Positions 1-56,646 of a DNA stretch of 64,000 bases are shown here, one piece after another; position 1 is the stretch's first letter; each line of letters starts with the position of its first letter. A program made the position numbers and the translations under genes. The DNA is from Amoebophrya sp. A120 (Eukaryota > Protista > Dinoflagellata). The stretch spans positions 5,665,379-5,729,378 of the forward strand of contig CAJINV010000005.1 in NCBI GenBank assembly GCA_905178155.1, in the 5' to 3' direction. The notes beneath the pieces were generated by a model. The model did no database searches, was not told the origin of the DNA, and was given only the letters and a program-made list of their open reading frames with translations.

Positions 1-3000
1 ATATCTGTCGCAGATAAAGCTGAGGAAACAGAAGTTGAAACGGATATTACCCGAATTGAGGTTCGAAGCCGGTTGCGCCGAACGGGGGAAAGCGGTGTAT
101 TGCGAAGCGGAGGTGAATATCAAGTGCAAAAATGTCTCGGTCTGGAAGATTGCCTGGTTTGTCGTGCATATTTTGCACAACCCATGATGCCTGTAATGAA
201 TGACCTAGCATCAGAGATTTTTAAAAGGGCCTTCTGGTTCTGATGCGTATTCCGCGTGAGAAATGCGGCCCTGTCCGCGTAGCACGAATGGAACTCCTCT
301 TGCTGGTCATGCAATACAGATTTTTTACCTTGTTCCAAAGACAGCATCACAAGTTACAACCTTCCAGACCCAGACATATTTGCATTCCATAGTGAACGAC
401 TTCGTGCAGTTTTCCTCGAGCCAAAATTTCTCAGGTACGACTACAGGAGGCTCTGGAACGCCCCGAGCTGCAGCAGCTGCGAATAGTACAGGAAATAGAA
501 ATCCGGGCGACATAGCGAACACAAGAATGTACTACCAGCAACACCACAGGGAAGCGGTGATTCAAGTTTGCGAAAAGATCCCGACTCTATCACAGGAAAA
601 AGTGTTATACGTTAACGGTTTTCACAGATTCTTGCAGTCATGCATCACAAATGTAGTTCAATATGCATGCTATGCATGACAAATTCTGACACGTCTTGTG
701 ATGCATTTCTGCGTCACAAATTCCGTTAACGTTAACACTTTTTCTTGTGATAGACTCTTCCCCCCATGCAGACCTGGCACAACCAGAAGGGGAGGCTGAC
801 CGCAAATCGGCCGGAGACGGTGGAGATCTCGAATCAGGTAGACAGAATCAAACACCAGATGAAAACTATCGTGCCGACCATTCACGCGGACCTGTTCACG
901 TTGTCGCAGTTAGTGACGTTGCCGTTCATGGAAGCAGAGGACAGGAGGAAGTTGGAGTTCGACGTTTTGGTTTTGCCCAACGGGGCGATTTGCTTCAAGT
1001 GCGTTTCTATCCACGATCCGGCGGACGATAGTGAAATAGATGGCGGAGAGGTCGAGGACGACGTTGATCAGGAAAGAACGGACTCGCTCTCGTTCCCGTC
1101 CAAAGCCGACCTGGCGAATTGCGAAGTGGAGGGTCCGGACGCGAGTCTGATCACAGCTTTTACGTTATCACAAGCAAAAGTGTTAAGGTTGAGGGTTTTC
1201 ACAGATTGGAGCCATGCATCACAAATTTAGCTTAGTATGCATGTTAAGCATGACAAACTTGGACGCGTTTTGGTTATGCGTTGCTGCGTCACAGATTCCG
1301 TTAATGTTACCACTTTTTCCCGTGATATACGCAGCAGGAGCTGAGGTTGAGCGGGAACGAATCCGCTGCCGCAGCGATTCTTGCGGGTTCAACATCTCCG
1401 CCGGCGCTGAAGAGACAACGCAAGGACAGCGACGACATTGCTCTTGCTGGGCAGCAAGATGAAAGAACCTCGAGCAGCGCCAGCGGCGGTGGAAGTTGTG
1501 CGATCGAAGAGGACCATCTGCATTCCCTAGCTGGTGCAAATAAAACATCAACTTCCAGCACGACGCTCCATAACACAGTCTCCCCTTCCTGGGAGCTTTG
1601 CCGGTCCCGCCTCATCCAGGCCGGTCGGGGTTCGCAGCTGTGCGCTTTCGGGCAACGGAAGACGAAAGAGGAGGCAAGTATACACTATTACGAGTTCGCG
1701 TTGAATACCCATTACATCCTGCTCGCAAAGCCCATCGAAGCGTGTTTCAAAGTCCAGAATTTACAGCACAAGCTCGACTTTGGCAAGCAGCAACCGATCA
1801 GCTTGAAGTGTATGCGGTACAAGCCGCCAAAGGTCGGGAATGCAACTAGCGCGCACCCGGAGCCGAAGTTGTATCGGAAGCAATTGCTGCAAATTTGGGG
1901 GGAAGCAATGTGGATATCACAGGAAAAAGTGTTAACGTTAACGGAATTTGTGATGCAGTGACGCATCAGAAAAGGTGCGCAAATTTGTATTGCATAGCAT
2001 GCATAGAAGGCAAAACTTGTAACGCATGACTGCCATTTGTGAAAACCGTTAACGTTAACACTTTTTTGTTTGATAGTGGATGGAGGAAAATCACAGCCAC
2101 TTGGTTTATTTTATCGACGATGGGAAAGTCATACCGAGGACAACTTCTGGCGGTAGTAGCAATAAACCTGCATCACCCGACGACCATCTCCACCCGGATT
2201 TCTATCAAATGTAAAAATGTCTGGGTCTGGAAGGTTGGAACTTGTGATGCTAACTTTGGACTCTAAAAAGATTTGTATTGCATGACCAGCAATAGGAGCC
2301 CAGTTTGTGCTACGCAGGGAGGGCATTTGTCATGCGGGATAGGCATCAGGAAGACCTCTACAAATATGTGATGCCAGACCATGCATTACAGACATCATGG
2401 CTCATGGAAAATATGCATGACAAAATCTCGCAATCTTCCAGACCCAGACATTTTTACGTTTGATAATTTCAAGCAGTTGACAAAAGAACGGATGATAACC
2501 ATCGGGAAAAATTACAATTGGAGCCGGTGCCGAGGGTTCGAATTTGTGGACAAACTATTCTCCTGGATTCATTCAGGCATGATCACTGGGCGTTGCCAGT
2601 GGCGGACGCGGTTTAAACTCTTCTGCAGTTCTACGAGGACAGATCAGCTATTCCCTGAAAATTTTTAACCACCCCCAGCCGGTCATTTTCTGCATGGCAG
2701 GCACTGAATTTACTACATGTTTTGCATGACAAATTGGAAGATTATGGGGATGGTTAATGTTTCAGGGAATATCAGCCGATTGAGACGGATCTGTGCGACA
2801 TGCTGGTCCTGCGCGGTTTAAAATACGATGAGCAGAAGCCAATGACTCGAGCACCAGTGAGCTTGAACTATTTCGGCGGGTTCTGTGATTTGAAGAAGAA
2901 CTACAAAAACGTGGGTAGTAGTACAACAGCCTCCTCTTCTATCGTACAAAAAAAGTGTTTCACTGTAAGGATCTTACAGGTTTTGCATCACAAGTTTGTT

Positions 3001-6000
3001 CTACATGACCGAGAAAATTTGCCATGCGAGGTTCCTAAAGGGAAAACACAGCGAAAAATCCACAGTCTTGCATGTGTAGCAAGACAAACGCTTGCGAGAT
3101 ACACTTTCTGCATTACAAGTTTACAGTGAAACAGTTTTTTCTGGGGATATCTTCATCTTCTGGTCAACGACTTTCCACCACCCCGACTTCCGCTGCGGCT
3201 GCTATGGAGTTCTCAAACGTTACACTCTCAACTGTTACATGCATTTGTCATGCAAAGTTGCCAACAGCCTCCACTTGATGAAGGTGCTTTAGCATGACAA
3301 ATTTTCGAAGGGCTAAGCAGCATGGTAATCTGTGGCAAAAAATCTGTGATGCGAAATATGCTGCAACGTTGCCACTTTTACTGTTGCTGTTCTTGCATTA
3401 TGTAACGTTTGAGAACGCTATAGGTGCTATGTGGCAGAGGACCCCGAGTCTCGGCAGTCAGCACCCGGGGGGATTGCTGCCGAACGAGACAATGTATGAA
3501 ATGCAAATAGGTCTGGGTCTGGAAGAATGCGACATTTGTCATGCTAGTCTGGAATGACTCTGCACTCTGTATTGCGTGGCCACCAAGCGGCCCGCTTGCC
3601 TTTCATGCGAATAAAGCGCAGTTTCTCATGCGAAATACGCATCACAGAAGCACGAAAAGAGTTGTCATGCTTGGCGGCGCAGTACAGAGCACTCTATTGT
3701 TCACGGAGTTGCATCACAAGTTTCCAGACCGCCAGACATTTTTGCGATTGAGACAATGCAGCTGCAGTTTGACACGTTAGTCAAGGAAGTACTGGACGAG
3801 GTAGAAACCATATCGCAAGAAAAAACTGTTTCGCTGTAAATTTGTAATGCAGAAACTGTATCTGAGAAGTGTTTGTCTTGCTATACATGCAAGACACTAG
3901 ATTTTTAGCTGTGTTTTCCCCTAGGAATCTCGCATGGAAAAGTTTCTCTGTGATGTAGAACAAACTTGTTTTGCAAAATAACTTACAGTGAAACACTTTT
4001 TTCGTACGATAAACCACGTCGTCAAAGGCCCCCGCCATTGTAACCGGGAAGAAGATGTCCTCGCCATCGAAACGCCCGCCGAGCGACAACAAGAAGGGCA
4101 CGACTAGCAAAGAAGATGAACCAGAAACGGCGATGAAAGTAGACGAGACCTTGGATGAAAAGCAGAAAGTCCTCGCTTTGTTCAAACAAAAACAGCAGAA
4201 AATCAAATCTCTCCCGAAGATCTACTCCACCATCAGCCCTTTCTCCCCGTATTTCCAGCTTCTCCAAGTGCCCTACGGGTGGCATTTGCGGTACTCCCGC
4301 TCCAGCAATCGGTCCTACTACGAGCACGCAACCTTCAAGCAAGAGAAAATCCAGAATTGGCAAAAGCGTGAGAAGCCGCAACTATTGGCAAAACTGGAAG
4401 AAGAGAAGAAGAAGCTCACTGAGGATGTCGCCTCGAAGAGGCAGCAAGCAAGAGTCGAGCACTACAAGAATGCGTTAAAAGCGCAGCATCCGGACAAGAT
4501 GCGATTTCACTCTTGGACGGAATTGTACAAAACACCCATTGGGTGGCAAGCGAGAATTCCTTCTGACGTGTGGAAAAACGAAATGAGTTTCAAGAAGATG
4601 CCAGATTCGGTGGAGTTTGGTAGGTTGCAGAAACTGGAAAACCAGAAGAAACCGGACCAGAGGAAACTACTCGATCCGGAGGACACGATATGCATCGCAA
4701 AAGTTTATCGTATTAGTGGATTAATTGCATTACAAATTAGCTTAGCATGACTGATGTAATTTGTCATGCTGTTTTAGCTGAGAAATGCTGAACTGCAATT
4801 AGTACACGAGTGCGATACTTTTGCAGTGGATACACGAAGTCGCGGTACGACGTGTACTTTGAGAACTCGTTTTTGGACAAGAGGTTCACCACCGGCGGCA
4901 GTACAGATATCACAAGAAAAAGTGTTAACGTTAACGGAATTTGTGATGCAGTGATGCATCAGAAAAGGTGCGCAAATTTGTATTGCATAGCATGCATGGA
5001 AGGCAAAACTTGTAATGCATGACTGCCAACTGTGGAAAGCCTAATGTTAACATTTTTTTTGTTTGATAACAGGCAGTGGCGCTTCCTCCTCCGCGGCGAA
5101 AACGACGAATAGCACGGTTATTCCGACTGACATGCAGGAGTTGCTGAGAGCGACGGACACCTTTGACAACCGGAACTTTTTCAGCTTGAAAAACTCGACG
5201 ATCAAACAGAACACTTCGCTATCCTGTGTGAGAAAAACGTCCCAACCCCGAAGTTGTCATGCAGATTTGCGATTACAGGAACATTTGTCGTGCGCATCTC
5301 CATGAAATGCATTTCAGATCGTGTTCTAAAATTTGTAATGCTGTAAACAGGATGACTGAATTGCTTTGTCATGCAGCTTCCCTTGCTGACCACACTACGC
5401 TGCAGATGGAAAGAACTTGTCATGCGCAACTCCCAAAACTTGGAGACTTGTCTAGCAGACTTGACTATGGGGTCCTCGTGGGGACGTTTTTACTCAGGAC
5501 ATTCCCTCTCCTCCGTGGACCTTCTCGCCGTGAAACTGCAAAAAGACGAGATTTCCGAAGAGGCCGTGGCGAATTATCTGAAACAGGAGGCAAATCGGTT
5601 TTACACGGCGAACGTGACGGACTGGAATTTGCCGTTTAAATCCGCAGACCAGTCGACCAGGGATTGGTTGGTCAGTCAAAACGGGATTTTTCTAGTGAGA
5701 AAGTTCGGCCACGAGAGGAGTATCAAGGATTTTACCAGTCCGGAGTTGGCGAAAGTGGATATGGACGACTGGAGACACGAAAAACGGGAACAACCAGAGA
5801 CTCTCGCTATCAAAGTGAAAAAAAAACCCTCCCCCTATCGAAACGAAGTTTCTGATGCTGGATTTGCGAACACAAATCAGATTTGTCTTGCTGGAGAGGA
5901 CTACAGACGCATAGTAATCCGGAGCAGAGCGGCTTTGGCATAGGCACTTAGCATGAAGAACGTCCGCACTGCAGGCCCAACAGCATGACAAAACGCCTGC

Positions 6001-8541
6001 AAAATGCGGCGGAGACTGTGGAGCTGCCTTCTTGCAAGACAGACGCGATCTGTGGCCACAAATCAGCAACGCAAATTGTCGAAGACGTGACCACGCGTCA
6101 ATATGTGTATGGGGAGGGGGGATTTTTCCGTGTGATACTCGTGGACGACGCGGCTGTTGAGGACGTGTTTGCTGCGCTGGATGGGAATAACGCCGGGTAT
6201 TTTCATGGGGCAGGACGAACAATGTATGGCGAGGAAGTAGACCAAGGATGGTCACTGGAGCGGGAGCTTTTTGAACAGCAGCAGGAGATAAATAACGAAA
6301 ATGGAGGCGGACCTCCTCCGCAGTTGTTCTACAACGAATCTGTACTGCAATTTCAGCAGCAAGTGCAACAGCAAATTCAGGAGTACCAGTTGCAATCTCC
6401 GAATTTTGATGTCAAAGAGGACGAGGACCAGCAGCAGCATCGTGATTTCTCACAACCGCAGGCGCACCAGCAACAAGCGCATCAACTGGAGGGCGCGCAT
6501 CAGCATCTTCAGGAGCAATACGGGTGGTGGAGCTCGCCGGAGGAACAGCAGCGTGTCGGGTGGAATAATATTACCGCTACATCGCCCTGTTCTTGTGAAG
6601 GAAACCAAAACACTTTGTTCAATGACAGTCTGCGTCTGTCCCGGTTGCAGAGGAGCTCGGAGGACTTGTTATCCACCGGGAAAAAACACCCATCCCCATC
6701 CAATTTGTCATGCACAACATGTGTATCAGTTCAACAGGGCCCGCGGTTCAACAATGTACCTACCAGTTCAATACCGCCCCGGGGCCTAAATATCCTAGAA
6801 CAAGCAGGCCATTTGATATGCTCGGCGCCAAAAACATATGCAGGTGGAGGAAGGAGTAGGGGGGGCGTTCCTGACCCAAAGGTACGCTCCTGATCTCAGT
6901 GGTACTTAGTCGACCCGGGGGGCCAGGTATTACCTGACCCCCGGTTCGGGTCTGTGCCTGCAATGCTGCAGCGAAGTCGTTTTAGATGGTGCTGCAGCAC
7001 AGCTGCGCGCACCTTGATGGGCGCCAAAGGCCCCAAGTCTGTCGCTACAGAAAACGGTAGCCATGACTGCGATCGGCCCTAGTGTTCGACCGCTTTCTGT
7101 TTGAAACCAGCGCCGCGCACACAGCTTCGGTCTTCGTGCGCCCATTGATCGGAAGCAGCGTCCCTAAATCCTACGGCCGGCAGCCGTGCCACCGTAAACA
7201 ATAGTCGCGCAGCGCTTCGCGCCTCACAAACCAAAATCGCGCGCGCGCGCGCCAAAATACAGGACCTTTTGGGGCTTGTTGCGTGCACATTCTTTTTGCG
7301 ACATATGGCGCCCGCAAGATATGCTCTGTAGCTCATCGGGATTCTTTTCTCCCGTTGCCCGCTCTTTTTTTCGGGGTTTGGCACGTGCACTACGTATGGT
7401 TCTCTTCTTTTTCGTATGCCCGGAACCTTCACGAACTAAGTAGTTCGTGAACTGGGGTACACTCTCGAACCGATTCACATGCATAAAATCCGCTAGTTGT
7501 CATGCAAAAAATGGATGGGGATGGGTGTAGAAGTCTTTTCCTAGATACTTATCTGAGGAAGAACATTTAGAAGACCGCCTGAACGACTTACTCCCGTACA
7601 GCTTCTACGGAGGGGATAGGATGAAGGACAACGGTACAACTACTAGGGGCGAACAGCAGGAGACGAACCAGCGAGCTTCAAAAATATTGCCAGACGAGCC
7701 GCGACATCATCAACATCATGACGCGGTGGAGGAACCTGTTCCGTTTAATAGCGAAGGATCCTTTTTGCTGCCTCTGGAAGTAGGAGAGACGCAGAGAATC
7801 AACGCGGAGACTACACCAGGAGGCACCGCTCGTCGTGCCAGCGAGGATCATCCTCTCCTAGAAGAGCACCAACAGGACGAGGACGAGGACGAGTATGACG
7901 AAGCGGCGGAGGCCCGGGAGCTCGCTAAGGAATTGGAAAACGGTCTCGGCGCTCTGGTGTTGGAATCGCCAGAATTGCTGGTCTCGTTGGCAGAGAGCTT
8001 GGAGAAGGAGGAGCAGGAAAAAATGAAAAAGGAGAAGGAGGAGGCTGAAGCTCAAGCTGCAAAAGTAGTAGAGGACAAAGAAAATATTATCCCCACAACT
8101 AGTACAACTGGTGGCCGTGCACCAGCTGCACAAACGAGAAGTTGTCCAGGGGCGCGGCGTCCTAGTTCTCGCGATAAAAAAGCAGCAGAAGACGACTACG
8201 ATTTTGAAGCAGAATTGCAGTCTCCCACGGATGTGACCGCGAAGAACCAGCAGGATACGACGGTAAATAACACTTCTGCAGGACGAGCGGCGTCAAGCGC
8301 CAAGGATCAACAGCAGAGTAAATATCTCAAACTGCCACTGGAGGAGCCAGACGAAGCGGGTGATGATGATGTCGAAGATGATCACGATTTGGATGACCAC
8401 TGGGATCTTCTTCGCGGGGAGGACGATGACGATCATTGGGATGGATTGAACTCGCCCGGGGCCGCTGGGGATAATTCAGAGGCTCCTGAGCACAAGAACA
8501 TCAATAAGCGAAAACTACTACACAAGCGAAAGCTTGTATGA
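1..8541 (+). CDS. Large multi-exon protein (5' end outside window) with a WW domain; 15 introner introns
   Basis: Removing each TIR element plus one 5-bp repeat joins the ORF fragments into one frame (e.g. CEAEV|NDFVQ, KIPT|LPPMQ, RSSEDL|SEEEHL) ending KRKLV* at 8541. WW-like motif VPYGWHLRYSRSSNRSYYEH at about 4265-4330. Confidence 0.75.
118..391. mobile_element. Introner, family A
   Basis: TIR TGCAAAAATGTCT(C/G)GGTCTGGAAG; TAT...ATA ends; direct repeat GTGAA/GTGAA. Confidence 0.9.
588..752. mobile_element. Introner, family B
   Basis: TIR TATCACAGGAAAAAGTGTTA..CGTTAACGG; repeat GACTC/GACTC. Confidence 0.92.
1166..1327. mobile_element. Introner, family B
   Basis: TATCACAAGCAAAAGTG...CACTTTTTCCCGTGATA; repeat TACGT/TACGC. 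Confidence 0.88.
1915..2075. mobile_element. Introner, family B (inverted relative to 588)
   Basis: Family B TIR; repeat GTGGA/GTGGA. Confidence 0.92.
2203..2465. mobile_element. Introner, family A (inverted relative to 118)
   Basis: TIR TATCAAATGTAAAAATGTCTGGGTCTGGAAG; repeat ATTTC/ATTTC. Confidence 0.92.
2649..2771. mobile_element. Introner, family M
   Basis: TATTCCCTGAAA...TTTCAGGGAATA; repeat TCAGC/TCAGC. Confidence 0.9.
2940..3149. mobile_element. Introner, family C
   Basis: TATCGTACAAAAAAAGTGTTTCACTGTAA...TTACAGTGAAACAGTTTTTTCTGGGGATA; repeat TCTTC/TCTTC. Confidence 0.9.
3203..3422. mobile_element. Introner, family F
   Basis: TATGGAGTTCTCAAACGTTACA...TGTAACGTTTGAGAACGCTATA; repeat GCTGC/GGTGC. 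Confidence 0.88.
3495..3753. mobile_element. Introner, family A
   Basis: GTCTGGGTCTGGAAG...TTCCAGACCGCCAGAC; right end AGA; repeat CAATG/CAATG. Confidence 0.87.
3811..4011. mobile_element. Introner, family C (inverted relative to 2940)
   Basis: Family C TIR; repeat AACCA/AACCA. Confidence 0.9.
4689..4832. mobile_element. Introner, family E
   Basis: TATGCATCGCAAAAGT...GATACTTTTGCAGTGGATA; repeat CACGA/CACGA. Confidence 0.9.
4908..5068. mobile_element. Introner, family B
   Basis: Near-identical to 1915-2075; repeat ACAGA/ACAGG. Confidence 0.9.
5220..5501. mobile_element. Introner, family H
   Basis: TATCCTGTGTGAGAAAAACGTCCC...GGGACGTTTTTACTCAGGACA; repeat TTCGC/TTCCC; homologous to 52084. 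Confidence 0.87.
5808..6137. mobile_element. Introner, family G
   Basis: TATCAAAGTGAAAAAAAAACCCTCCCC...GGGGAGGGGGGATTTTTCCGTGTGATA; repeat CTCGC/CTCGT; homologous to 52476. Confidence 0.88.
6670..7547. mobile_element. Introner, family D, carrying a nested insertion
   Basis: AAAAAACACCCATCCCCATCC...GGATGGGGATGGGTGT; repeat CTTGT/CTTAT; siblings at 11512 and 13153 are only 138 and 114 bp. Confidence 0.85.
6722..7477. mobile_element. 756-bp non-coding insertion nested in the family D introner
   Basis: Imperfect TIR TGTATCAGTTCAACAG / CTCTCGAACCGATTCA (12/16), flanked by CATG on both sides; absent from siblings. Confidence 0.7.
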
Positions 8542-9383
8542 TCATCCACCTCGCGGCACACTTTCATCCATTTGAATTTGCACTGTGACAAGAAACTTCG
8601 TGGTAGCTTCAAGTTGATTGTAGGAAGTTGAAGTGATAGAGTATCTGACTAACTCTAGGTCTAGATCAGCGTCACTGGGGGCTTCTTTACGAGAAGGAGA
8701 AGATGACAGAAAGGTATTAATTTTCATCGCAGCGCGTTCTCATTATCATATCATGATGTTTGCATGCGCATTTTTTGGCAACGACCATGGTGCGTCTTGG
8801 TCTTGGTTTCAGGGCAGCAGCCGTGAAGAATTTGGTATCTGCAGCTGCTGTCGTTCTTGCTGTCAGTGGTGCAGCTCCTTGCTCTGTTCATCTAAGGATC
8901 GTTTCAACATCGTGCAAGGCTTAGTTTTCAAAGTCGGCGGCGGAAAAAGAAATGCAAATAGCGTTACGCAGTGGATGGCTTCTTCGCAGTCACTGTGCGT
9001 CTGCCTGTACCTACTTTTGTGGAACAGCACGATGATTTTTATTCTTAGGACCCACATCTTTTTTGTGTTGCTGCTTTTTCGAACAATGTCTCGTGCGTTT
9101 TTGTTTTTTTTTCAAAATATAACCGTCTTGACACTTGTGCACTTGTTTTGTGATCATCTTGCTCATTGTGTTTAGTGTGCGTAACCTGTCTGTAATAGTA
9201 GATGGGCTAGAGGGCGCGCCACGATTTTCCAAAGCCTTGCTTGTTTATGTTTCGCTCAACAAAAGGAACTGCCTCAATACCTGCCTGTGCAGAGTCAACA
9301 AAGTTATCATCTGCATCACTGAAGATTGCAAGCTGCTCACCTTCAAGTCTATTCTGTTCTAGATCTAGTCTGCTTTTTGAAAA

Positions 9384-12300
9384 ATGCGCGGTTGTGACGA
9401 TCCAGCATCCGTCGCTGCTGGTCTCAACGTCGTTTCTTTCACCTACAATTGCGGTGGCGTGGAGCCCCCGCAGGAGGAAAATTTAAAGCAGAAGCTACAG
9501 GAAGAGATTCGGGAAAATCTGCTCCAGCAGAGGATTGATTGCAGTCGCAACAGTGATGGAAATGATCTTGTTGATTTTGCTGGTGCGCCTGCGGCCCATT
9601 CTGCTTATATTACCGTCGAACAACAAGCCGCAAATCCATCCACAACTGGAGGCACAACGAGGAGCGCTGGTGACCACAGTGTGTGCTTTACCCCGGACAT
9701 CGTTGTGATCAATCTGCAAGAATGTTGCCCGCTAGCCCTGGCCGCTTTAGGCAACAACGCTTCGGACTCCTACGGAAACAAATGGCGAGACGTTTTCATT
9801 GAGGCTCTGGGCTACGGGCCATTAGACCGATTGACCTGCAGGTTTTACACCCAGTTGCACGGCGGGAAGGGAGCTTCAGGAACCGACGTTGCACCTGCGC
9901 AAGAGCTCGATATAGAGGAAAAATGCGAAAATTCCGCCGGTGATCAACATGTTGTATCGAGTTGTTCTAGGGCTCATGTCGCGTCCTCGTCCTCGTCTGC
10001 GAGCGCCGTTGCGGCTGCTAGTGACGTAGCTTGTTCCAAAAAGTGCTCCTCAAAATCGTCAGTAAGCACAGCGGCCTCGTCTTCTTCTAGTTTTGTTTCT
10101 ACGGCAAGCAGCACTGGTGATTGGAAACAACTCGCAGCTTCCGCTTCGAGCTCTTCCAGGCTAGAAAGGGAAAGACAAATATGCTCATCGCCGGATAGCA
10201 ATTGCAGTTCAAATTCGAGCGCCTCGACATCATCGAGTAGCGCTTCATCCTCTTCGACATCTTCCCCGTGTTGGACTACGACGGAGCAAATCAGCCCCGC
10301 ACCTAGAGCCAGTCCACCCGACGAGAGAAGGGATGAAATAAGCCCGAAGGATCCACCAGTGTCGCCGTCGCCCGACGCATTAGTGAACGAGAAAGGCCGC
10401 CGCGATCTGTTCTTCCCACCGGCCTTATCAACATCGGGAGGGGAAGATGTAAATAAACACGCACCACAAATCGCATCAAACGGAGCGGAAGACGAGACAG
10501 TTACGACAAACAGTTGTGGTTCATCTAGCAGCTGCTTCAGCGCTTCAGCGTTATCTTCAACCGCAGTGACGCCAGGGAATTCCAGTTCGAATTCCTCTTG
10601 TTCTAGCTTTCTCCCGCCCGGCGGCGCAGGTATGGTAGTGTCAGGATCGAAATCGACAAAGTTGAAACATCAATTTGCGATGCATAAAATGCAATCCACA
10701 GAATGCCTGTCTTGCAGAGTAGGCAAGGTAGGCAGATTGTAAGCCTGATGAGGGGTAGAACTAGAAACTGAGCTGCTAAAGTAGCATGACAAAAGGGGTC
10801 TTCCTTACCCAAACAGCATGACAAACTGGATTTCGGTTCTACCCAAGTTTGTCATGCACCACTTAGAAACTGGGTTACAACTGGCATCCATTTTATGCAT
10901 GACAAACCATTAACGACTTCAATCCTGGCACTTCCATAGCAGGCAGTCGCTTTTTACAAGTTCCTCAAGCCGGGGGTGCGAAGGTGCGCAGTGCGGGAGG
11001 TCGTGCAGTTGTTGGGCAGCTGACCGCCGAGTCTTCCTCTGCGAGGACAGGCAGCATGACAACAGGAGGTGGAGGCTTTGGGTCCCGCCGGGCAACCGCG
11101 ATCACTACGAATAAGATGCAGAAAAATTATAACCGCCGGCCGACACAGCTACCGGAAGAGCTGCAGGGCGGGTCGTTTGGAAGTACTTCTAGCTGCGCTC
11201 AGACTCAGACGCCTGCTGCAGAGGGCAAACAGGACGAAATAATAATAAAAGAAGTTCTTGCAAAAGTTGGTAAAAAATCCCGACGACGGCGCGGCACAGA
11301 GAGCAGTAGCACTGGGGGCTCCTTCATCGACCTTGCTGACTACGAAGACGCAGCCTGTCGCTCTCCCTCGTCACACAGTTGCCAGCAGAACTTCTCATGC
11401 GAAACGCCGAAAGTAGTAAAGGTGAACAAGCAAGGTGGTAAAGCAGGCCCCAGCTGCTCAGGCGGTAGAATCGACGACGACCACTTTTCAACATCCGAAA
11501 CAACATCCGACTATCCAGGAAAATGAAACACCCATCCACATCCGATTTGTCATGCGAAACACGTATCAAAAAAAGAAAATTTCTGAAGATAATGCTGTGT
11601 TTGTCATGCAAAAAATCGATGCTGGGGTTGGATTTTTTTTCCGTCAATACCAACAGTAGCCTCGCTGCGGATGTGGAGCACAGTCCAAGGTGCACCGTTT
11701 TGTATCACAGGTAAAAGTGTTAACGTTAAACGCTTTTCACCGATAATTGCAGTCATGCATCACAAATGTAGCCCAATGCGCATGTTATGCATGACAAATT
11801 TTGGCACGTTTAGTGATGCATTGCTGCATCGCAAATTCCGTTAACGTCAAGAACACTTTTTCCTGTGATATTTTGAGCGCGACGGCAAGAAATTCCATAA
11901 GCAAGGCCATCAGACGGGAGGAGAGGAAGAATAAATCATCACTCCTGCTGCATCAAAAGACCACTAGCACACGGACAAAATTCAGTGGTTCGTCATCATC
12001 CACGACCGCCGCCCACACCGGGGAATGTTATCACTCCTTGGCGTTCGCCCCTATGTCGCAGCAGGTGACGACGCCTCCGAAACTAGGCTCCATCTCGTCC
12101 AAAACCGGACTTTTGCAGCCGCCCGCGCTGCTGAAAGTAGGAGCAGCTCATCCGGGAGGAGGTGCAGGCAATGCAAGTGCTTCGCCTTCGCATTCTCCTC
12201 TCAAGCACATGATCCACCAGTCACGACGCTGCCTGAGCCCCGGTCGGGTAGGACAGGAAAGTTCTCTGAACACATTGCCAAGCACGTGTAGCTATCCTGT

Positions 12301-15300
12301 GCAGAAGTATCGTACTCGTGGTAATTGCAGATATGCATCACAAATTTTTTTCTCAAGGTAAATCAGCATTACAAATTTCATTTCTCATTCTCATGCTGAG
12401 GAAATTTGTAATGCATTTATACGAGTGCGATACTTTTGCAGTTCATAGCACCACCTTCTCGACGTCCTCTTCCTCCAAAAAACTTGCAAAAGTCGCTTCC
12501 TCCCCTGGGCCGCTGCGGAGTTGTGCGGGCGGCCGGAAAAATTATATACAGCCGAAGACGTCGGGGTCAGCGCACACCAACAGCAGTGGGACGACGAGTG
12601 TTGCCGGCCGCGGTCCTGGGGCAGCTGTTCTTTCAGCTGATGTGCGGAGCAAACAGAAGAACGTGGCTTTTTCAACAGCAGGAGCGACGGGCGGAGCACA
12701 TCATCAAAACGACGCGGCGGTAATACCTTTGCAGGTCTCGTCAGAAGGTGTATTGGATTGCTCACCCAACTACGCTACCAAGGACCCGGAACAAGTTCCT
12801 CCTCCTGCGCATCAAGCTGATAAAAAGCACATGACCGAACAACAGGAAGAATCAAACAGCAGCCACCAGCCCTTGATAAACAACATGAACAAACCCCACT
12901 TACGACTGATCAAATCACACCGCATGGTGGGTTTGTTCACCCTCGTTTTCATCAACACGAAAAAAATCCCGACCTCTGCCATCCACTCTTGCACGAGTTG
13001 CCAACATAAATTAGGCTTCTTCAACGGCTTACTGGGGAACAAAGGGGCCATTTGCGTCCGCTTGACGCTGCAGATGCCCGGAGTGGTACGGACACAAGTA
13101 TTAAGACCGCTCCGCCTCGCGTTTTTCAGTTTCCATCTCCACGCCGGGGAAGTATCCAGGAAAAAACACCCATCCCCATCCAATTTGTCATGCAAAACAT
13201 GCATAATTTGCAGCGTTTTTCATTTTCATGCAAAAAATGGATGCGGATGGTTTTTTCTTCTCGATAGGATGGCTTGAACGCGTATAAACAGAGGCTGAAC
13301 GGCTTGAAAGAGGTGTTCGGGGACAAGAGTTGTATCTCCACTACCCAGGAGGGAGGCGAAGAACACGCCGAAGAGTCGCTGGTGCTCAACCGAGCGTCTG
13401 TGACGTCAGCGTCGGGCAGGACTGTAGGTAGAAGTTCTGGTGTGGTCCAGCAAGGGGCACCAGGGAGCTCAAACAACGGCGAGGGTACTCAAACAACTGG
13501 CAATCCGTTGTTTGAATACGAGCGGTCATGTGACTATCGCAGGAAAAAGCGTTAACGTTAACGGATGAATTTTTTGTATATGCAAACACGCATGCCTATG
13601 CGTGCCATTGTCATTGCCGGAAAAAATGGAACTTGTATTCGCCATTTTTGCGTAGCATGTAATGTAGTAGAGAAAATGAAAATCATCATGTCATGTCCTT
13701 TAGGCTGAAGACCGTTAATAGCGTTAGCACTTTTCTGTTTGATACTGACTTCGCGTTTTTCAGTGGGGATTTCAATTTCCGCTGTATGCCGGTTAATCAA
13801 GATTATTTGCTGCAGGAGGATCATAATTTTGAAGGAGAAGGACATCTTGAAGGGCACCAGGAGCACGTGCACGCAAGCGGCCCGGGGAGCGAAATTCACC
13901 ATGCTAGTAAAAACCTCCACCAGGTAGATCTTCAGGAAGAGGCCCTTTGCGGCTCCGCCGGTAATTTTTGCTGCTCGAACACCAGTAATTGCTGCTCCGA
14001 AAGCACGTTATCAAAGGAGACGGTAAGTGACTTCTGTGCGGTAGGCGGAGCTGGAGGTGGAGCCGCAACGACCTCAAGTTCTATCACAGGAAATAGTGTT
14101 AACGTTAACGGAATTTGTGATGCAGAAACGCATCCCAAAACGTGCCAACCTTTGTCATGCATAGCATGCATACTAGGCAAAATTTGTCATGCATTTTTGC
14201 AATCTATGAAAACCGTTAATGTTGCCACTTTTTCCTGTGATAAGTTCAGGATACGTCACATCGTCGTGTGACGAGGAACAGTCCTCCTCTTTACGACAAT
14301 GCACAACTCCCTCTCCCCATCATTTGTCATGTAAAATACCAAGTCCACCCTTTCCCCTTTTGCGCGGCTTGCATGACAGATTCCGGAAGCCGAAACAGCT
14401 CTAGAATCGGTCCCCCTTTTGTCATGCAAAAGCTGTATGTATGCCACGACTTGCGTTGCTGCTAGCTTATGCCATTCAACAAATGAGGGGGAAGGGGAGT
14501 TGTGCACTCTCATAGCCCTCTCTTCAGGATAACGACAGCAGCTGCAGCTCTCGTTTCACACTGCGGAATTACAGCACGGCAAAGTTTTTATCGCAGCCGA
14601 GATTTTCATCTGTAGCGCTCCAGAATCTCAGTGATGTGGAGCAGGAGCTAGAGCTACACTCTGCGGGTGCGGTGAATCATGCTGCACAACAACCTCGTCT
14701 CCCGCCTCTCGCGGCTGTGGTGCAGAAGAAGCACTACAAAGACGATGATAAAGAAATCGAAACGCATCCAGATCCACCACCAGCTCACCAGCACGAGCAG
14801 TCCTTGCGCGACGATGAAAACCGGCCAGGACGAGTATCCTGTGCAAAAGTATCGTATTCGTATTGCAATTATGCATTACAATTTTTTTCCGAAAGCTAAA
14901 TCCGCATTACAAATTTTGTTTCTCATGGAAATCGAAATTTGTATTGCATTTATACGAGTACTACGATACTTTTGCAGTTCATAACGAGTAGCAGGTGCCA
15001 AGAACTCAACAGAGGCAGCCGCAGCCAACCCATCTTCTGCAGACCCCCGGGCAGTGGAGGATTTTGATTTCGCATTTTTTCACGAGCTTTTTCACTGCGA
15101 GCCGGTGATTACCCCCGTTTTGAGCTCCTGGCACAAAAACTACGGGAGCAGCAGCTTTAACGACAATCACAAGAGCGCAGAACTTGTCCACAAAATCACA
15201 ATGCACGACGAGCAAGCGTTGCAAAACTTCGAAGCCGAAGACGAGACGCTGGTGAAAATCGTGGTGCCAGACTGGGTAAGCATTGCAAAAGTAGCGTTAT

Positions 15301-18300
15301 TGCATACTAGTAGAAATCGCATGACAAATTTTTCCAGAAGGAAAAACGGAATTTGAGATGCAGATTCAGATAAAAGACTAGATCTGTAATGCAGCAAGGC
15401 TACAATTTATACGAGCGCGATACTTTTGCACAGCATACTGGGTGCCGCACGCATTTCTTTTGAACTTTGCTCTGGACAAGATGCGAAAACTCGGAAAGAA
15501 CTACTTTACACTGCTACAGGAGCAGCCAGCACCGGACGAGCAGGAGGTGCTGCAAGAATATTACACACTAGAGGAGCATCCACGCAATGAACAAATAAAT
15601 GAGCAGGTAATACATCAACTAGCGGGTAGAAGTCCTCGTGAAGACAACTTAGCAATCGACGAAGAAGTCATCGAGATAATCGAAGACGACGAGGACTTTT
15701 ACAACCACGACGACCCGGTGGCCGTCGAAACAGATGACCACGGGATCCACTTTGGCCGAGCGACCCGCAGCGTGGATCATTCTTGCGCCGGTTTAGACAG
15801 TTGTTTCGCAGGAGGACCACGAAGTGGAGGTGGAATATATCATGACACGCATGACGAAAAAATGTTGAAAGAGGACAGCACGACCACCGTTTGGGCAGGT
15901 GGTAAAGAACGCGACAGGCGGTGCCGACCCGTCCGAAGCAGGCGGTCCAGCTGGGCGTCAAGCGGGGATGTAGTGCACCACGAGCCAAATGACAGCACAG
16001 AGAACGATCCGCATCGTGATGGTGCTGAGGGGATGAACCAACATGATCCGCACAAAAATACGTCGTATCCGAAGCCGCGCCGCACATCGAAGAGCAACAC
16101 GCCACAGAAAACGAAAAGTGGCGGCAGGTGGGACCACGACCAGGAGTTGCGAAACTGCAGAGCAGCGGAAGTAATAGATTTTGGCAAGAAGCCCAAGCTC
16201 CCACGGTGTAGCAACGGAAAGAAGAACCGCTGGTTTGATACTGAACGGCGGGAGGGCCGAGCTAACGGAACCGCAGGTTTGAAAAATAGTAACCTCCCAC
16301 CTCGAGGTGCTGAAAATATCAAGAACAGGCACCAAATGTTGAACAGAAGGACCACCAGCCGCGACATTTTCCTCTATCTTTCCGCCCAGCAAGGCGCTTT
16401 TTACGTCCGGGATCTGGAAAACTCCGCGGTGAAATGTATGACACCCTCAGAATAGAAATCCTCAAAGTGGAAATGATCTGTGATGCATGAAATGCAAGGC
16501 AAAAAAGACTGTATTGCAGAGGACACAATGGAGACCGACTATTGTCCTGCTAGGGGTTCAGAATTGGGCTGCTGATTAGCACGAGAGAAGGGCACCCTTT
16601 TGCCTACCTAGCATGACAGACATGCTTTGAGTGCCCGGAAAATTTGTGATGCGCCCACTAGAAATGGCGCTTCAACTGGAGTTGTTTTTTTGCATTGCAA
16701 ATTATTTCCACTTTGAGGATTTCCAACCTGAGGCTTTCATAAAATGCGCGGAAATTTTTCAGCAGCTGCAGAAAACAGCGACGTCTATTGCAGGAGGAGG
16801 AGCATCAGCTACAACAACTTCTAGATCAAGCTCATCCAAGATGAACACGAAAGGGATGAAACAAGACGACGCGGCGACGGGAGCAGTTTCTGCTCATGCA
16901 CCAGTGTCGACTATAACCACAACTGTAGGTGGAAGTCGCGGCTCTCCCAGTCCGCGCAACCTACTCAAGAACAAGAGTAAGCAGCTCATCCTGAAAGAGT
17001 ACGGAAAAAGAGACGAGTTCCGGATCGCGAGCAGCATCTTTCGAAAACAGTTTATCCAACGAAGAAGATTGTTGTAGGTGTAAGTTTGTGATGCGCAAGA
17101 ACATGTACGATGATTGCGTCTGTCATGCTCGTCATGCATTGTAGCGTTGCGTCAATTCAGCTTCTGCGTTTATTTCAGTTTCACGCGCTATCCTCGCGTG
17201 ACAGCTTGAGCTTTTTGCTGATTCATGCCAGACTGCCAGATTTGTAAAAATGCTGGCACACGACCAATAAAAAAGTTACACCTACAGTCACAGTCTTTTT
17301 TTTTCTTGGATACAGTTTCAATTTCAAGAGCCTGAGATATGCTTTCTTCCGAGCTACAAGTTCAAGATATGGATGTGTCAGGTTTGAAATCGTCAAAGTT
17401 GAAATTGTTTGCCATGCATAAAACGGATACCAGTTAGACCTACAGTCTGTAGTCGGTGCATGACAAATATTTCCGGTCCTGGAAACGAGTCTGTCATGCG
17501 GCTTAGGGCAAAAGAGCTGCCTTCTGCCATGCTACTCAGCAGTCCAACCCTTAACCCTTACCAGGGCTATAATCTGCCTCCCGTGCGTCCTCTGCAATAG
17601 AGTTGCTTTCTGTGTCGCATTTTATGCATGACAAATCATTTCAACTTTGACGATTTCAATCCTGACACCCCCATACAAGAAAACCGAACAGTACAGCACC
17701 GAACGGGCGTATGACACCCTCAGAATGGAAATCCTCAAAGTGGAAATAATTTGTGATGCATGAAATGCGACACCAAAAAGACTGTATTGCAGAGAGCGCA
17801 ACGGAGGCCGACTATTGTGCTTCTACGGGTTCAGAATTGGTCTGCTGATTAAGTAGCATGAGAGAAGGGCGCCCCTTTGCCTAACTAGCACGACAGACAC
17901 GTTTTGAGTGCCCGCGAAATTTGTCACGCGCCGACTATAAATGGTGCTCCAACTGGAGTAGTTTTTTTGCATTGCAAATTATTTTCAGTTTGCGGATTTC
18001 CAACCTGAGGCTTTCATAGGGCGCCGAGCTGGTGCGATCGGGTGCTGTATTACTGCAAGGGTGATTTGATTTCGCCAAAAAATGATTATCGTGGATTTTA
18101 CAAATACAATCCCTTCCTGTACCGTGCGGTAGAAAACGCGGAGGTTTTGCAAAGCGACCATCGGTATCAACTGCAAATAATATGCCTGGGTCTGGAAGAG
18201 TGGAACTTGTAATGCTGTCTGCGGATTCTAAAAATGTCTGTGTTGCATGAGCAGCAAGAGGAGTCAGCTCTTGGCACGCGAAGAGGGGACTTCTCATGCG

Positions 18301-19150
18301 TATTCGTATATGAGCATCAAGAAGCAGCTGAAGCTCGTCTCAAAAAATCTGTGATGCTAGCACCAGCATCACCGACCTCACGGGTCATGCAAAGTGTGCA
18401 TGACAAGCCCCGACTCTTCCAGACCCAGACATTTTTGCAATGCATAATCGGGCGGTAATTCAGTACGGAAAGCTTGAGCTAGTAGGTCGTCGTATCATGA
18501 TGGCGGCGGGGGATGTCTACAAAACGGATCAAAGTCCATCTTCGCAGCAAGCAACATCGGGAACCGGACCAAATTGTGGCCACGTAGCTCAAATAAATCG
18601 TACTAGAAGCAACCACGTCGAGCGGCAAGTGGAGCAGCGGCGTGACTTTGACCACTGTGGTGCTGCCGTAAACGAGGACAATTCTTGCCATGGAAAACAA
18701 CTTCTACAAACCGGTGAACTACGTCAAGGCAGCAGTAGTACTATCTGCGAAAATACCAGCGACAAGGACAAGGGCGGCACGAAGATAATTCCCGCAGTAC
18801 TCGGAACTGCAAAGGCTGTTCTTGCTTCTACTTGTCCAGAACAACTACACGCTGGCCAAGATGAGTCCGGTCCTCGGACGGGAACGCGTTTGCCAAAGTA
18901 TCCGAAGAACGTGCTTGGTAATAATGATCCAGTACCGCCGAAGATCCTCTCGAACAACAGCAACAACAAGCCGGAGTCAAGAAATATTAAACATAACCTA
19001 GGCTGCTCTACTACTTCGGAGGTGGAACAAATCGAACTAAGGAATAGAAACCCGGAAATAAATCTACCCACGACAAGCACGACCACTGGTCGCCGCACAG
19101 AAAGCAGCGCGACTTTCTACAAGAGTCCGCTCATTACCGTCTTGAAATAA
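9384..19150 (+). CDS. Inositol polyphosphate 5-phosphatase (EEP fold) with long low-complexity insertions; 15 TIR-bounded introns
   Basis: After splicing: VVSFTYNCGG, PDIVVINLQE, RMVGLFTLVF, GNKGAICVR, FHLHAG, FFSGDFNFR, EICFLPSYK, RAPSWCDRVLY and SDHRAV, the canonical IPPc motifs in order. Confidence 0.9.
10631..10938. mobile_element. Introner, family J
   Basis: TATGGTAGTGTCAGGATCGAAATCG...CTTCAATCCTGGCACTTCCATA; repeat GCAGG/GCAGG. Confidence 0.9.
11512..11649. mobile_element. Introner, family D
   Basis: TATCCAGGAAAATGAAACACCCATCC...; repeat CCGAC/CCAAC; frame restored. Confidence 0.82.
11703..11870. mobile_element. Introner, family B
   Basis: Family B TIR; repeat TTTTG/TTTTG. Confidence 0.92.
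12293..12447. mobile_element. Introner, family E
   Basis: Family E TIR; repeat GTAGC/GCACC (3/5); frame restored. Confidence 0.85.
13153..13266. mobile_element. Introner, family D
   Basis: Family D TIR; repeat GGAAG/GGATG; join gives FHLHAGE|GLNAYKQR. Confidence 0.88.
13535..13744. mobile_element. Introner, family B-like
   Basis: TATCGCAGGAAAAAGCGTTAACGTTAACGG...; repeat GTGAC/CTGAC; join gives SCD|FAFFSGDFNFR. Confidence 0.88.
14082..14242. mobile_element. Introner, family B
   Basis: Family B TIR; repeat AGTTC/AGTTC. Confidence 0.92.
14292..14514. mobile_element. Introner, family N (no clear direct repeat)
   Basis: About 36-bp TIR TACGACAATGCACAACTCCC.../...GGGAGTTGTGCACTCTCATA; internal GTCATGC motifs. 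Confidence 0.8.
14835..14983. mobile_element. Introner, family E
   Basis: Family E TIR; repeat ACGAG/ACGAG. Confidence 0.92.
15277..15437. mobile_element. Introner, family E
   Basis: Left end TAAGCATTGCAAAAGT; repeat CTGGG/CTGGG; join gives VPDWV|PHAFL. Confidence 0.9.
16437..16741. mobile_element. Introner, family I
   Basis: TATGACACCCTCAGAATAGAAATCC...GGATTTCCAACCTGAGGCTTTCATA; repeat AAATG/AAATG. Confidence 0.9.
17073..17286. mobile_element. TIR-bounded intron with TGT...ACA ends
   Basis: TGTAGGTGTAAGTTT / AAAGTTACACCTACA; internal TTTGTGATGC and GTCATGC; exact removal restores the frame into EICFLPSYK. Confidence 0.7.
17368..17675. mobile_element. Introner, family J (inverted relative to 10631)
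   Basis: About 37-bp TIR; repeat CAAGA/CAAGA. Confidence 0.92.
17710..18018. mobile_element. Introner, family I
   Basis: Close homologue of 16437; repeat GGGCG/GGGCG. Confidence 0.92.
18165..18446. mobile_element. Introner, family A
   Basis: Family A TIR; repeat ATCGG/ATCGG; join gives QSDHR|AVIQY. Confidence 0.92.
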
Positions 19151-19786: not shown

Positions 19787-20490
19787 ACTTTTTGTCTTTG
19801 CCTCAGCCGTTCTGCCGCCTAGGAGGGAATCGCTCCTCACCCGTGGGGAGGCGGTTTTTTTGGTTTTTGCGGTCATTTCGCAAGCAGCAGACGCTGCCCA
19901 ATTTTCAGAAATTGCAAGACTTTTTGTCTTTGCCTCAGCCGTTCTGCCGCGTACGAATCGCTCCTCACCCGTGGGGAGGCGGTTTTTTTGGTTTTTGCGG
20001 TCATGTCACAAGTAGTCGACGCTGCCCAATTTTCGGAAATTGCTAGACTTTTTGTCTTTGCCTCAGCCGTTCTGCCGCGTACGAATCGCTCCTCACCCGT
20101 GGGGAGGCGGTTTTTTTGGTTTTTGCGGTCATTTCTCAAGCAGCAGACGCTGCCCAATTTTCAGAAATTGGAAGACTTTTTGTCTTTGCCTCAGCCGTTC
20201 TGCCGCGTACGAATCGCTCCTCACCCGTGGGGAGGCGGTTTTTTTGGTTTTTGCGGTCATTTCTCAAGCAGCAGACGCTGCACAATTTTCAGAAATTGCA
20301 AAACTTTTTGTCTTTGCCTCAGCCGTTCTGCCGCGTGCGAATCGCTCCTCACCCGTGGGGAGGCGTTTTTTTTGGTTTTTGTGGTCTTTTTAAAAGCAGC
20401 CGACGCTGCCCAATTTCCAAAAGTTGCAAGATTTTTTGTCTTTTCCTCCGCCGTTCTGCCGGTTACGAATTGCTCCTCGGCCGCGGGGGT
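19787..20490. repeat. 128-bp tandem satellite, about 5.5 copies
   Basis: Unit starts at 19787, 19919, 20047, 20175, 20303 and 20431; high identity, degenerate at both ends. Confidence 0.92.
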
Positions 20491-20890: not shown

Positions 20891-21659
20891 TATGTACAAG
20901 ATGCATCACAAATTTCCTCAATTTGGAGTGTGAGACTTGTCATGCTGAACTAGGATCGAAGCCAAGTTCTGCCATGCACCAAAAACCGCATTTGTACGTC
21001 GTGTACGGGAAACTAACTGTGGATACTGTTCCAAAGTCGGCTTCAAAGTTTCCTCGACAAACTTGTTGAAGCAAAATTCCTGTTCCTCCCGCGTCGCAGA
21101 AGGGGGTAAAGATTTGTCGCAGTTCGTCGGGACGGAGTAAACGAGGGTGTGGTAGTAAATAGGTTTGTCATTGTCATTGTTGCTGCTGCTGTCATTATCT
21201 CCGGATGTAGTTGACTTCGTCAACGATCGTCGTGCTGTGGTTGTTAACTTGTTCGTCCCGAAGGCAATTTTCTGCAGAAAGAGCATCCACGCGGAATGGC
21301 GGGCGGAGGACGCAGTCCCAGTCGCTGCACTTGAACTAGTACTCGACTTGCCCAGCTGCCGCGCACGCAAAAATTCGGACTTTTCGTCGTCTGCGAGGTT
21401 GCTACTGCCGTCGCTGTTCTGCGTAGAAGATGATGAACTTTTGGTGGTTTTTTTCACCGCCGGCAGGATTTTATGCATTGCAAAAGTATCGTACTCGTAT
21501 AAATGCATTACAAATTTCCTCAGCATGAGAAATGAAATTTGTAATGCAGATTTGCCTTGGAAACAAGATTTGTAATGCAGGACTTGCATTTATACGAGTG
21601 CGAGTGCGATACTTTTGCACAGGATAGATTTTTCCCGGTCGTGACACAAGAGCGATCAT
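20891..21659 (-). pseudogene. Truncated - strand gene fragment (MIALVSRPGK|ILPAVKK...KPTLEQ)
   Basis: Frame restored across the 21472 introner; runs into a family L introner (about 20891-21025) that lacks its distal TIR; no further exon found. Confidence 0.5.
21472..21626. mobile_element. Introner, family E
   Basis: Family E TIR; repeat GATTT/GATTT. Confidence 0.92.
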
Positions 21660-44427: not shown

Positions 44428-44457
44428 TTTTGAAGTGGCAGAAGATACTTAAAACTG

Positions 44458-56638: not shown

Positions 56639-56646
56639 CAGCAGTG

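What the first reader, a model, noticed from the sequence alone, without database searches (positions are those of the whole stretch)
118..17675. The same introner works in either orientation within one gene
Seen: pairs 588/1915 (B), 118/2203 (A), 2940/3811 (C) and 10631/17368 (J) are reverse complements lying in the same + strand genes, and both orientations restore the frame. Known: spliceosomal signals (donor, branch point, acceptor) are directional. Inference: recognition is symmetric, for example a TIR stem that juxtaposes the two direct repeats plus the bidirectional motif.
Basis: partly seen in the sequence, partly recalled or inferred. Interest (0 to 1): 0.7.

Follow-up and report, generated by a model that had tools for sequence, protein, structure and literature searches.

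The report
Flip-proof introners with fixed cut offset
Two neighbouring genes, likely of the algal parasite Amoebophrya, are interrupted by 30 small transposon-like inserts without GT-AG ends that sit in either orientation; transcript-derived contigs lack those they cover, and the cut likely falls at a fixed distance from the inverted-repeat ends, which would explain why flipping does not matter.

Summary
Observation confirmed. All four named pairs are reverse complements (71–85% identity), each inside one + strand gene. Removing 15+15 TAT…ATA elements plus one 5-bp duplication gives two unbroken frames (1,543 and 2,146 codons). Transcript-like contigs lack family-B copies of both orientations, while DNA contigs keep the one spanned. 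The elements fit the published Amoebophrya A120 introners (Farhat 2021), and either-orientation introners are published for Aureococcus and Polarella. New here: four junctions with mismatched duplications fit only one fixed cut, after base 4. The intron is then N-TAT…ATA-NNNN, with U at +2 in 45 of 45. This fits Farhat's unexplained N-T donor table. No RNA-stem selection is seen (G·U 32, A·C 36), and the internal motif is dispensable. Best guess: the U1-less spliceosome reads signals in the repeat ends and measures the 3' cut (0.5). Rival: a Euglena-like stem-measuring route (0.3). Only four junctions fix the register. The scan noted related hairpin-bounded introns on other DNA, not this rule.

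The parts
2..8541 (+). Gene 1 (open at window start), 16 exons, 1,543 codons after removal of 15 elements; no convincing Pfam family
   Evidence: RNA-like contigs
9384..19150 (+). Gene 2, 16 exons, 2,146 codons; exonuclease/endonuclease/phosphatase domain (PF22669) split across exons; inositol 5-phosphatase-like (label recalled)
   Evidence: E 2.3e-9 in exon 12453-13151; 0.042 in exon 18024-18161
118..391 (.). Element, family A, orientation 1; perfect 5-bp duplication
   Evidence: removal in RNA contig record 1 only consistent by length
588..752 (.). Element, family B, orientation 1
   Evidence: RNA contig leaves the genome exactly at 753
1166..1327 (.). Element, family B, orientation 1; duplication differs at base 5, mRNA has the right copy
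   Evidence: joint 1160|1328; DNA contig 726-1942 keeps it; left copy would give a stop
1915..2075 (.). Element, family B, orientation 2
   Evidence: frame only
2203..2465 (.). Element, family A, orientation 2
   Evidence: frame only
2649..2771 (.). Element, family K, orientation 1
2940..3149 (.). Element, family C, orientation 1
   Evidence: frame only
3203..3422 (.). Element, unassigned family; duplication differs at base 2
3495..3753 (.). Element, family A, orientation 2; ends AGA
3811..4011 (.). Element, family C, orientation 2
   Evidence: RNA contig leaves the genome exactly at 4011
4689..4832 (.). Element, family D, orientation 2
   Evidence: removed in RNA contig record 3 by length
4908..5068 (.). 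Element, family B, orientation 2; duplication differs at base 5
   Evidence: removed in record 3 by length (2,503 predicted = observed)
5220..5501 (.). Element; duplication differs at base 4, mRNA has the left copy; ends ACA; weak predicted stem
   Evidence: RNA piece starts at 5506
5808..6137 (.). Element; duplication differs at base 5, mRNA has the right copy; weak predicted stem
   Evidence: joint 5802|6138
6670..7547 (.). Element, family K, orientation 2, 878 nt with a nested insert; duplication differs at base 4, mRNA has the left copy
   Evidence: joint 6668|7552
10631..10938 (.). Element, family J, orientation 1; reads as canonical GT..AG under the 4|1 cut
11512..11649 (.). Element, family K, orientation 2
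11703..11870 (.). Element, family B, orientation 1
12293..12447 (.). Element, family D, orientation 1
13153..13266 (.). Element, family K, orientation 2; duplication differs at base 4
   Evidence: no RNA joint seen
13535..13744 (.). Element, B-like; lacks the internal motif on both strands
14082..14242 (.). Element, family B, orientation 2
14292..14514 (.). Element, starts TAC; degenerate duplication (2 of 5)
14835..14983 (.). Element, family D, orientation 1
15277..15437 (.). Element, family D, orientation 2; starts TAA
16437..16741 (.). Element, family J, orientation 1
17053..17312 (.). Element, unassigned family
17368..17675 (.). Element, family J, orientation 2
   Evidence: frame only
17710..18018 (.). 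Element, family J, orientation 1
18165..18446 (.). Element, family A, orientation 2

Best explanation
These are non-coding TAT…ATA inverted-repeat elements with 5-bp target duplications, likely the Amoebophrya A120-type introners; copies of both orientations are missing from transcript-like contigs, likely cut at one fixed register (after base 4 of each duplication), and likely by a U1-less major spliceosome that reads directional signals inside the terminal repeat. Shown: elements, duplications, both orientations, open frames, removal of element+5 nt in RNA-like contigs. Inferred from four junctions: one fixed register, so that the intron is N-TAT…ATA-NNNN. Inferred, untested: the repeat supplies +2 U and +3 A of a donor with +1 free; at the other end it supplies a U-tract and two invariant A's at -7 and -5, one of which would be the branch point; the 3' cut is measured 4 nt beyond the repeat instead of read from AG. 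Because both ends carry the same repeat, a flipped copy presents the same signals. The internal TTGTNATGC repeat is likely a DNA-level transposase-binding motif, not a splice signal.
For: Register: 1166 and 5808 allow cuts 0-4 only, 5220 and 6670 allow 4-5 only; cut 5 also makes a stop at 1166. Under cut 4, donors are CT 13, GT 12, AT 11, TT 9 of 45 and acceptors are mixed. All 9 predominant A120 non-canonical pairs in Farhat's Table S4 begin N-T. This register turns NNAGG duplications into ordinary GT..AG introns (10631 and L001:552), and Farhat found this repeat layout in 15% of A120 canonical introns. A120 keeps 83 of 89 spliceosomal proteins and U2, U4, U5, U6 but no detectable U1. Sense-strand +2 T, +3 A, -7 A and -5 A are each 45 of 45. 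All 4 departures in the terminal triplets break a pair uncompensated. No G·U excess: 32 G·U against 36 A·C in 720 positions. 5220 and 5808 are cut exactly although their terminal stem is predicted at only 0.11 and 0.06. A branch A six places from the 3' end is common in Yarrowia. A tunicate spliceosome handles MITE-derived non-GT/AG introns.
Against: No directional signal beyond the offset was detected. Conservation of the 5' and 3' repeat is equal at all 18 positions (Fisher p>=0.2), and YTRAY is no commoner on the sense strand (16 vs 14 of 45). G at +1 and AG at the end are not required, and 2 GT-AG cases in 45 is about what chance gives. A at -2 (20 of 45, p=0.013) and G at exon -1 (18 of 45, p=0.044) are uncorrected and weak. 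A terminal helix is predicted in 38 of 43 and would hide the donor. Euglena's non-spliceosomal-type introns also have offset spacers, 3 and 5 nt, so an offset does not prove a spliceosome. The register rests on four junctions from assembled contigs of one run whose RNA status is a guess; a variable cut would fit all four about 8% of the time. Farhat's N-T table may be shaped by aligner preference for GT-like ends, and the paper calls the sites variable.
Confidence: 0.5

Rival explanations
1. Stem-measuring route, close to the first reader's idea and Euglena-like: the two repeats pair, and a non-spliceosomal or spliceosome-independent nuclease/ligase cuts 1 nt before and 4 nt after the stem, releasing a circle or linear hairpin.
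For: Terminal helix predicted in 38 of 43. The outermost T-A pair is intact in 45 of 45. U1 is not found in A120. Euglena precedent of a paired motif with fixed unequal spacers and circular products. End conservation is symmetric.
Against: Sense strand folds no better than antisense (38 vs 37 of 43; duplex -15.3 vs -16.1 kcal/mol, p=0.22). No G·U over A·C excess. Exact cuts at 5220 and 5808 despite weak stems. Four uncompensated changes in the terminal triplets. The register coincides with the GT..AG register.
Confidence: 0.3
2. The cut is not fixed: the machinery cuts anywhere inside the duplication, or in family-specific registers as in Polarella, and the four junctions agree by chance.
For: Farhat describes splice sites as variable relative to the hairpin. 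Polarella classes use up to five frames. Only four junctions are informative.
Against: A uniform register fits all four with probability about 0.08. The four come from four different families. Cut 4 is the only register that puts a constant T second in the intron, as in all 9 Table S4 pairs.
Confidence: 0.15
3. The elements are excised at DNA level or are absent in the strain or stage behind the skipping contigs, so this is not RNA splicing.
For: The run is only guessed to be RNA, and contigs show neither strand nor intermediates.
Against: The skipping run has zero depth over the intergenic bin 8877-9510, where the DNA-like run has 32.8. Its exons match with 0 differences, and its joints mix left and right duplication letters. 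The DNA-like run keeps element 1166 in a 1,217-nt piece with 0 differences. Farhat validated such introns by RNA-seq.
Confidence: 0.04

Closest known systems
Introner elements among non-canonical introns of Amoebophrya sp. A120 (Farhat et al. 2021, PMC7789003)
   Same: Inverted repeat starting TAT, seven looser bases, then a run of A; 5-bp direct repeats; repeated families; no GT-AG; lengths around 240 nt; co-oriented genes.
   Different: The text seen does not treat element orientation and leaves the cut position as unknown or variable. Here both orientations are shown, and one 4|1 register fits. [quoted passage not shown]
Either-orientation introners of Aureococcus anophagefferens and Polarella glacialis classes 1, 2, 3, 6, 7, 8, 10 (Roy et al. 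preprint 10.1101/2020.10.14.339549; the Aureococcus paper itself not seen)
   Same: DNA-transposon-derived introns with target duplications that create introns in either orientation.
   Different: Those recruit GT/GC/GA and AG from element or duplication, need particular target sequences, and show orientation bias. Here any 5-mer serves, and neither G+1 nor AG is needed.
Nonconventional introns of Euglena (PMC12501133; review PMC11282704)
   Same: Terminal paired motif, fixed unequal spacers to the cuts, slidable direct repeats, probable MITE origin.
   Different: CAG/CTG motif with 3 and 5-6 nt spacers and a purine at the next exon start, tested by knock-in, with circles reported. Here TAT/ATA with 1 and 4 nt spacers, no purine rule (base after the cut A10 C14 G13 T8), mechanism untested.
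MITE-derived non-canonical introns of Fritillaria borealis (review PMC11282704; PMC13326754)
   Same: TIR/TSD introns without GT-AG removed in vivo, with a U2-type spliceosome in the genome.
   Different: AG-AC/AG-AT ends dominate and U1 is kept; here ends are N-T / any, and U1 is reported missing in A120.

Membership tests
Amoebophrya A120 introner elements | 8-20 nt terminal inverted repeat starting TAT, seven looser bases, at least three A | tested here: met
   TAT in 43 of 45; A at positions 11-14 in 146 and 152 of 180; definition
Amoebophrya A120 introner elements | 3-5 nt direct repeats overlapping the exon/intron borders | tested here: met
   5-bp repeats, perfect in 27 of 45; the cut lies inside them
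Amoebophrya A120 introner elements | Repeated families, non-coding | tested here: met
   8 families with 31 of 43 short copies assigned; the same families in L001/L002
Amoebophrya A120 introner elements | Removed from mRNA with non-GT-AG ends | tested here: met
   three direct joints, three boundary departures and one length match in RNA-like contigs; 43 of 45 not GT-AG
Amoebophrya A120 introner elements | Host is Amoebophrya A120 | not testable with these tools
   no genome held, run names coded; inferred from the element description only
Canonical U2 spliceosomal introns | GT/GC donor and AG acceptor | tested here: not met
   2 of 45 under cut 4; at most 1 under any other register
Canonical U2 spliceosomal introns | Branch-point consensus upstream of the 3' end | tested here: not met
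   YTRAY in 16 of 45 sense vs 14 of 45 mirror
Canonical U2 spliceosomal introns | Lariat intermediate, spliceosome dependence | not testable with these tools
   needs experiment
Euglena-type nonconventional introns | N3CDG ... CHG N5-6 | R signature | tested here: not met
   ends are N-TAT ... ATA-N4, no purine rule
Euglena-type nonconventional introns | Terminal pairing needed for splicing | tested here: inconclusive
   helix predicted in 38 of 43, but no G·U excess and no sense advantage
MITE / non-autonomous TIR DNA transposon | TIR, constant TSD, no ORF, random orientation | tested here: met
   six of eight families hold both orientations
MITE / non-autonomous TIR DNA transposon | Cognate transposase and superfamily | not testable with these tools
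   no genome laid; hAT5-like assignment is a recollection only and was not confirmed

The most novel reading that the evidence does not exclude
Amoebophrya has a second, spliceosome-independent splicing machine, convergent with Euglena's. It recognises any paired TAT/ATA transposon end and cuts 1 nt before and 4 nt after it, so that every insertion of the element family, at any target and in either orientation, is scarlessly removed from mRNA.
Probability: 0.3. Interest if true: 0.85.

Novelty: new member of a known kind. Interest (0 to 1): 0.5.

Why it matters
How tens of thousands of GT-AG-less introns are removed in a parasite that seems to lack U1 has been open since 2021, partly because the direct repeats hid the cut. 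A fixed N-TAT…ATA-NNNN register gives exact predictions: lariat branch at -7 or -5, or a defined circle junction. It can be checked at once on existing A120 RNA-seq and would fix gene models. It would also explain why these elements invade exons freely: no target sequence or orientation is needed. The elements themselves and either-orientation introners are already published.

Tried and rejected
No whole genome is held, so genome-wide orientation bias was not measured. Local tally for the 8 families (31 copies, 12 short copies unassigned): 1:2, 5:3, 1:1, 1:2, 3:3, 2:0, 2:0, 4:1. A one-way rule is excluded; a moderate bias is not. Read evidence comes from a single laying, whose joint table was filled by the DNA-like run; only 8 RNA-contig pieces were shown, so no joint was seen for 118, 1915, 2203, 2940 or any gene-2 element. 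No RNA holder is on record as RNA. Raw RNA runs X8 and X9 did not cover the exons and were not used as evidence. Protein searches with one exon of each gene found no longer relative (0 of 3,099 and 0 of 1,039 candidates; proteins above 2,000 aa not searched), so annotated proteins could not check the register. Viral contigs: 0 matches. Metagenome contigs: 2 loci of one contig, adding 8 elements. Rejected: internal motif as branch point (missing on the sense strand in 7 of 45, including RNA-supported 3811 and 5220); fixed registers 0-3 and 5; G·U enrichment, sense-strand folding advantage and 5'/3' conservation asymmetry (none found). Rows dropped: folding left out the two copies over 400 nt and included one mis-bounded copy (L001:1399, corrected to 1398-1655). 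21472 (strand unclear) and 44458 (outside a frame) were left out of the 45. Huff et al. 2016 was not held.
Full report
Observation. A scan for inverted-repeat ends with flanking direct repeats finds 30 elements in 1-18446, of 114-330 nt plus one of 878 nt, that begin TAT and end ATA and are flanked by a 5-bp duplication. The signature occurs 25 times under strict thresholds, against a mean of 0.33 in 30 shuffles. The four named pairs are reverse complements over their interiors, with 135/167, 215/276, 178/210 and 228/322 identical columns and scores far above 200 shuffles. Removing each element plus one duplication gives one unbroken + frame for 2-8541 (1,543 codons, 15 elements) and one for 9384-19150 (2,146 codons, 15 elements). 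Keeping any one element gives a premature stop in 30 of 30. These two genes need no other intron. Gene 2 has a PF22669 phosphatase-family domain spread over exons. Three more + genes in the window (7 elements) and a gene in loci L001/L002 (8 elements) open in the same way, giving 45 introns for statistics.

Orientation. Six of eight families hold both orientations in + genes (1:2, 5:3, 1:1, 1:2, 3:3, 4:1; two families 2:0; 12 short copies unassigned). A genome-wide count was not possible.

RNA. One laying of four runs on 1-19000 gave contigs of run X1 (RNA by guess) that match exons with 0 differences. It has no depth in the intergenic bin where the DNA-like run X5 has 32.8. Direct joints: 1160|1328, 5802|6138 and 6668|7552, removing 167, 335 and 883 nt, each element+5. 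Record 3 is 2,503 nt, exactly the predicted length with 4689, 4908, 5220, 5808 and 6670 removed. Pieces also start exactly at the predicted borders of 588, 3811 and 5220. X5 keeps element 1166 in a perfect 1,217-nt piece. Family B is therefore removed in both orientations within gene 1 (1166 directly, 4908 by length). For the A, C and J pairs, both-way removal rests on the reading frame, with RNA support only for 3811.

Cut register. Where the two duplications differ, the mRNA letter tells the cut. 1166 and 5808 differ at base 5 and show the right copy (cut at 4 or less). 5220 and 6670 differ at base 4 and show the left copy (cut at 4 or more). Cutting at 5 would also create a stop at 1166. 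One fixed register fits: after base 4. The intron is then one free base, TAT…ATA, and four free bases. Donor dinucleotides become CT 13, GT 12, AT 11, TT 9 of 45 with mixed acceptors. All 9 predominant A120 non-canonical pairs in Table S4 of PMC7789003 start N-T. Caveats: four junctions; a uniform variable cut would fit about 8% of the time (my arithmetic); aligner bias could shape that table.

Does either-orientation imply symmetric recognition? No. Both ends carry the same repeat (conservation equal at 18 of 18 positions), so a flipped copy shows the same 5' and 3' text. Introners with ordinary splice sites already work both ways in Aureococcus and Polarella.

The internal motif is real: 71 of 79 exact hits lie in the 10,104 element bases of the 64-kb window. 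But it is absent in one sense from 7 of 45 introns, in the other sense from 3, and in both from 1; sense counts are 98 vs 71 (p=0.045). It is more likely a DNA-level subterminal repeat (inference). The stem is predicted in 38 of 43 sense and 37 of 43 antisense folds (one copy mis-bounded, two long copies left out). Duplex energies do not favour the sense strand. Mismatches are 32 G·U against 36 A·C. 5220 and 5808 are cut exactly with predicted stems of 0.11 and 0.06. These tests have low power against a tolerant stem.

Mechanism. I favour, at 0.5, a U1-less major spliceosome. The register places U at +2 and A at +3 as in GUA and coincides with GT..AG when the duplication is NNAGG (10631, L001:552; 2 of 45, about chance). 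Farhat reports the same layout in 15% of A120 canonical introns and a nearly complete spliceosome without U1. The two A's at -7 and -5 are invariant (45 of 45), a distance like Yarrowia's branch points. Against: no branch consensus (16 vs 14 of 45), no required G or AG, only weak uncorrected biases at -2 and -1. Euglena's introns also have unequal fixed spacers with a paired motif, which keeps the stem-measuring route at 0.3. No intermediate was observed; the machinery is inferred.

Relation to what is known. The elements meet every testable feature of A120 introners; the host name is inferred. In PMC7789003 'strand' occurs 0 times, and the 'orientation' passages shown concern gene order. Its Fig. 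[quoted passage not shown] Its figures 3, 4 and S19-S25 are images I could not see and may show more. Searches returned no paper stating orientation-independence or a fixed register for these elements; most subscription journals are not searched, and bioRxiv supplements were closed.

What I saw of each paper. PMC7789003: abstract, passages, sections 10-12 and 16, supplement passages. PMC11282704: passages and section 6. PMC12501133: abstract, passages, section 8. Passages only: 10.1101/2020.10.14.339549, 10.1101/2022.06.06.494994, PMC12130899, PMC12005148, PMC13326754, PMC12621601, PMC13309789, PMC11453091. Huff et al. 2016: not seen. The labels hAT5 and inositol 5-phosphatase are recalled. 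Earlier scan notes list similar hairpin-bounded introns in other genomes, unchecked by me; none matched this genome or this element.

Verdict. The feature is real and the kind is known. The fixed 4|1 cut is a small but sharp addition that makes the open splicing question testable. Interest 0.5.

Noticed in passing
window 6670-7547: A family-K element carries a nested insert of about 700 nt (roughly 6740-7475) with its own short inverted ends, and is still removed whole at the same register.
   Followed up: partly
window 44458-45733: A 1,276-nt TAT..ATA element with a perfect 5-bp duplication, 31-nt perfect terminal repeat and 278 of 300 end bases complementary, just after a stop codon; it lacks the internal motif; longest stop-free stretch 200 codons. 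Possibly a young or larger relative.
   Followed up: partly
window 53475-53530: Orphan 5' half of a family-D element; no 3' end found within 4.5 kb.
   Followed up: partly
window about 39180: A single in-frame TAA inside an otherwise continuous frame from about 38590 to 44432; could be a short canonical intron, an assembly error or two genes.
   Followed up: no
window 26400-29060, 39180-44432, 50960-53480: Three more + strand genes whose frames open only after removal of 3, 2 and 2 TAT..ATA elements; five of these have mismatched duplications useful for the register test.
   Followed up: partly
window 2203-2253 and 17710-17823 (runs X8, X9): Raw RNA reads hold family A and J element ends with one constant foreign flank (70 and 592 reads): copies retained in transcripts at other loci, perhaps in UTRs or unspliced.
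   Followed up: no
window 32800-36600 and 54200-63200: Long intron-free frames that look by eye like reverse-transcriptase retroelements (+ strand; - strand with an N gap at about 56650-57460); not scanned.
   Followed up: no
window 19787-20460: Tandem array of about five 128-132 nt units.
   Followed up: no
L001:1-2212, L002:1-2900: A contig filed among metagenomes holds a gene with at least eight elements of the same families; one family-B copy is 94.6% identical to window 588-752.
   Followed up: partly
window 21472-21626: Family-D element outside the + genes, possibly in a short minus-strand frame; gene status unclear.
   Followed up: partly
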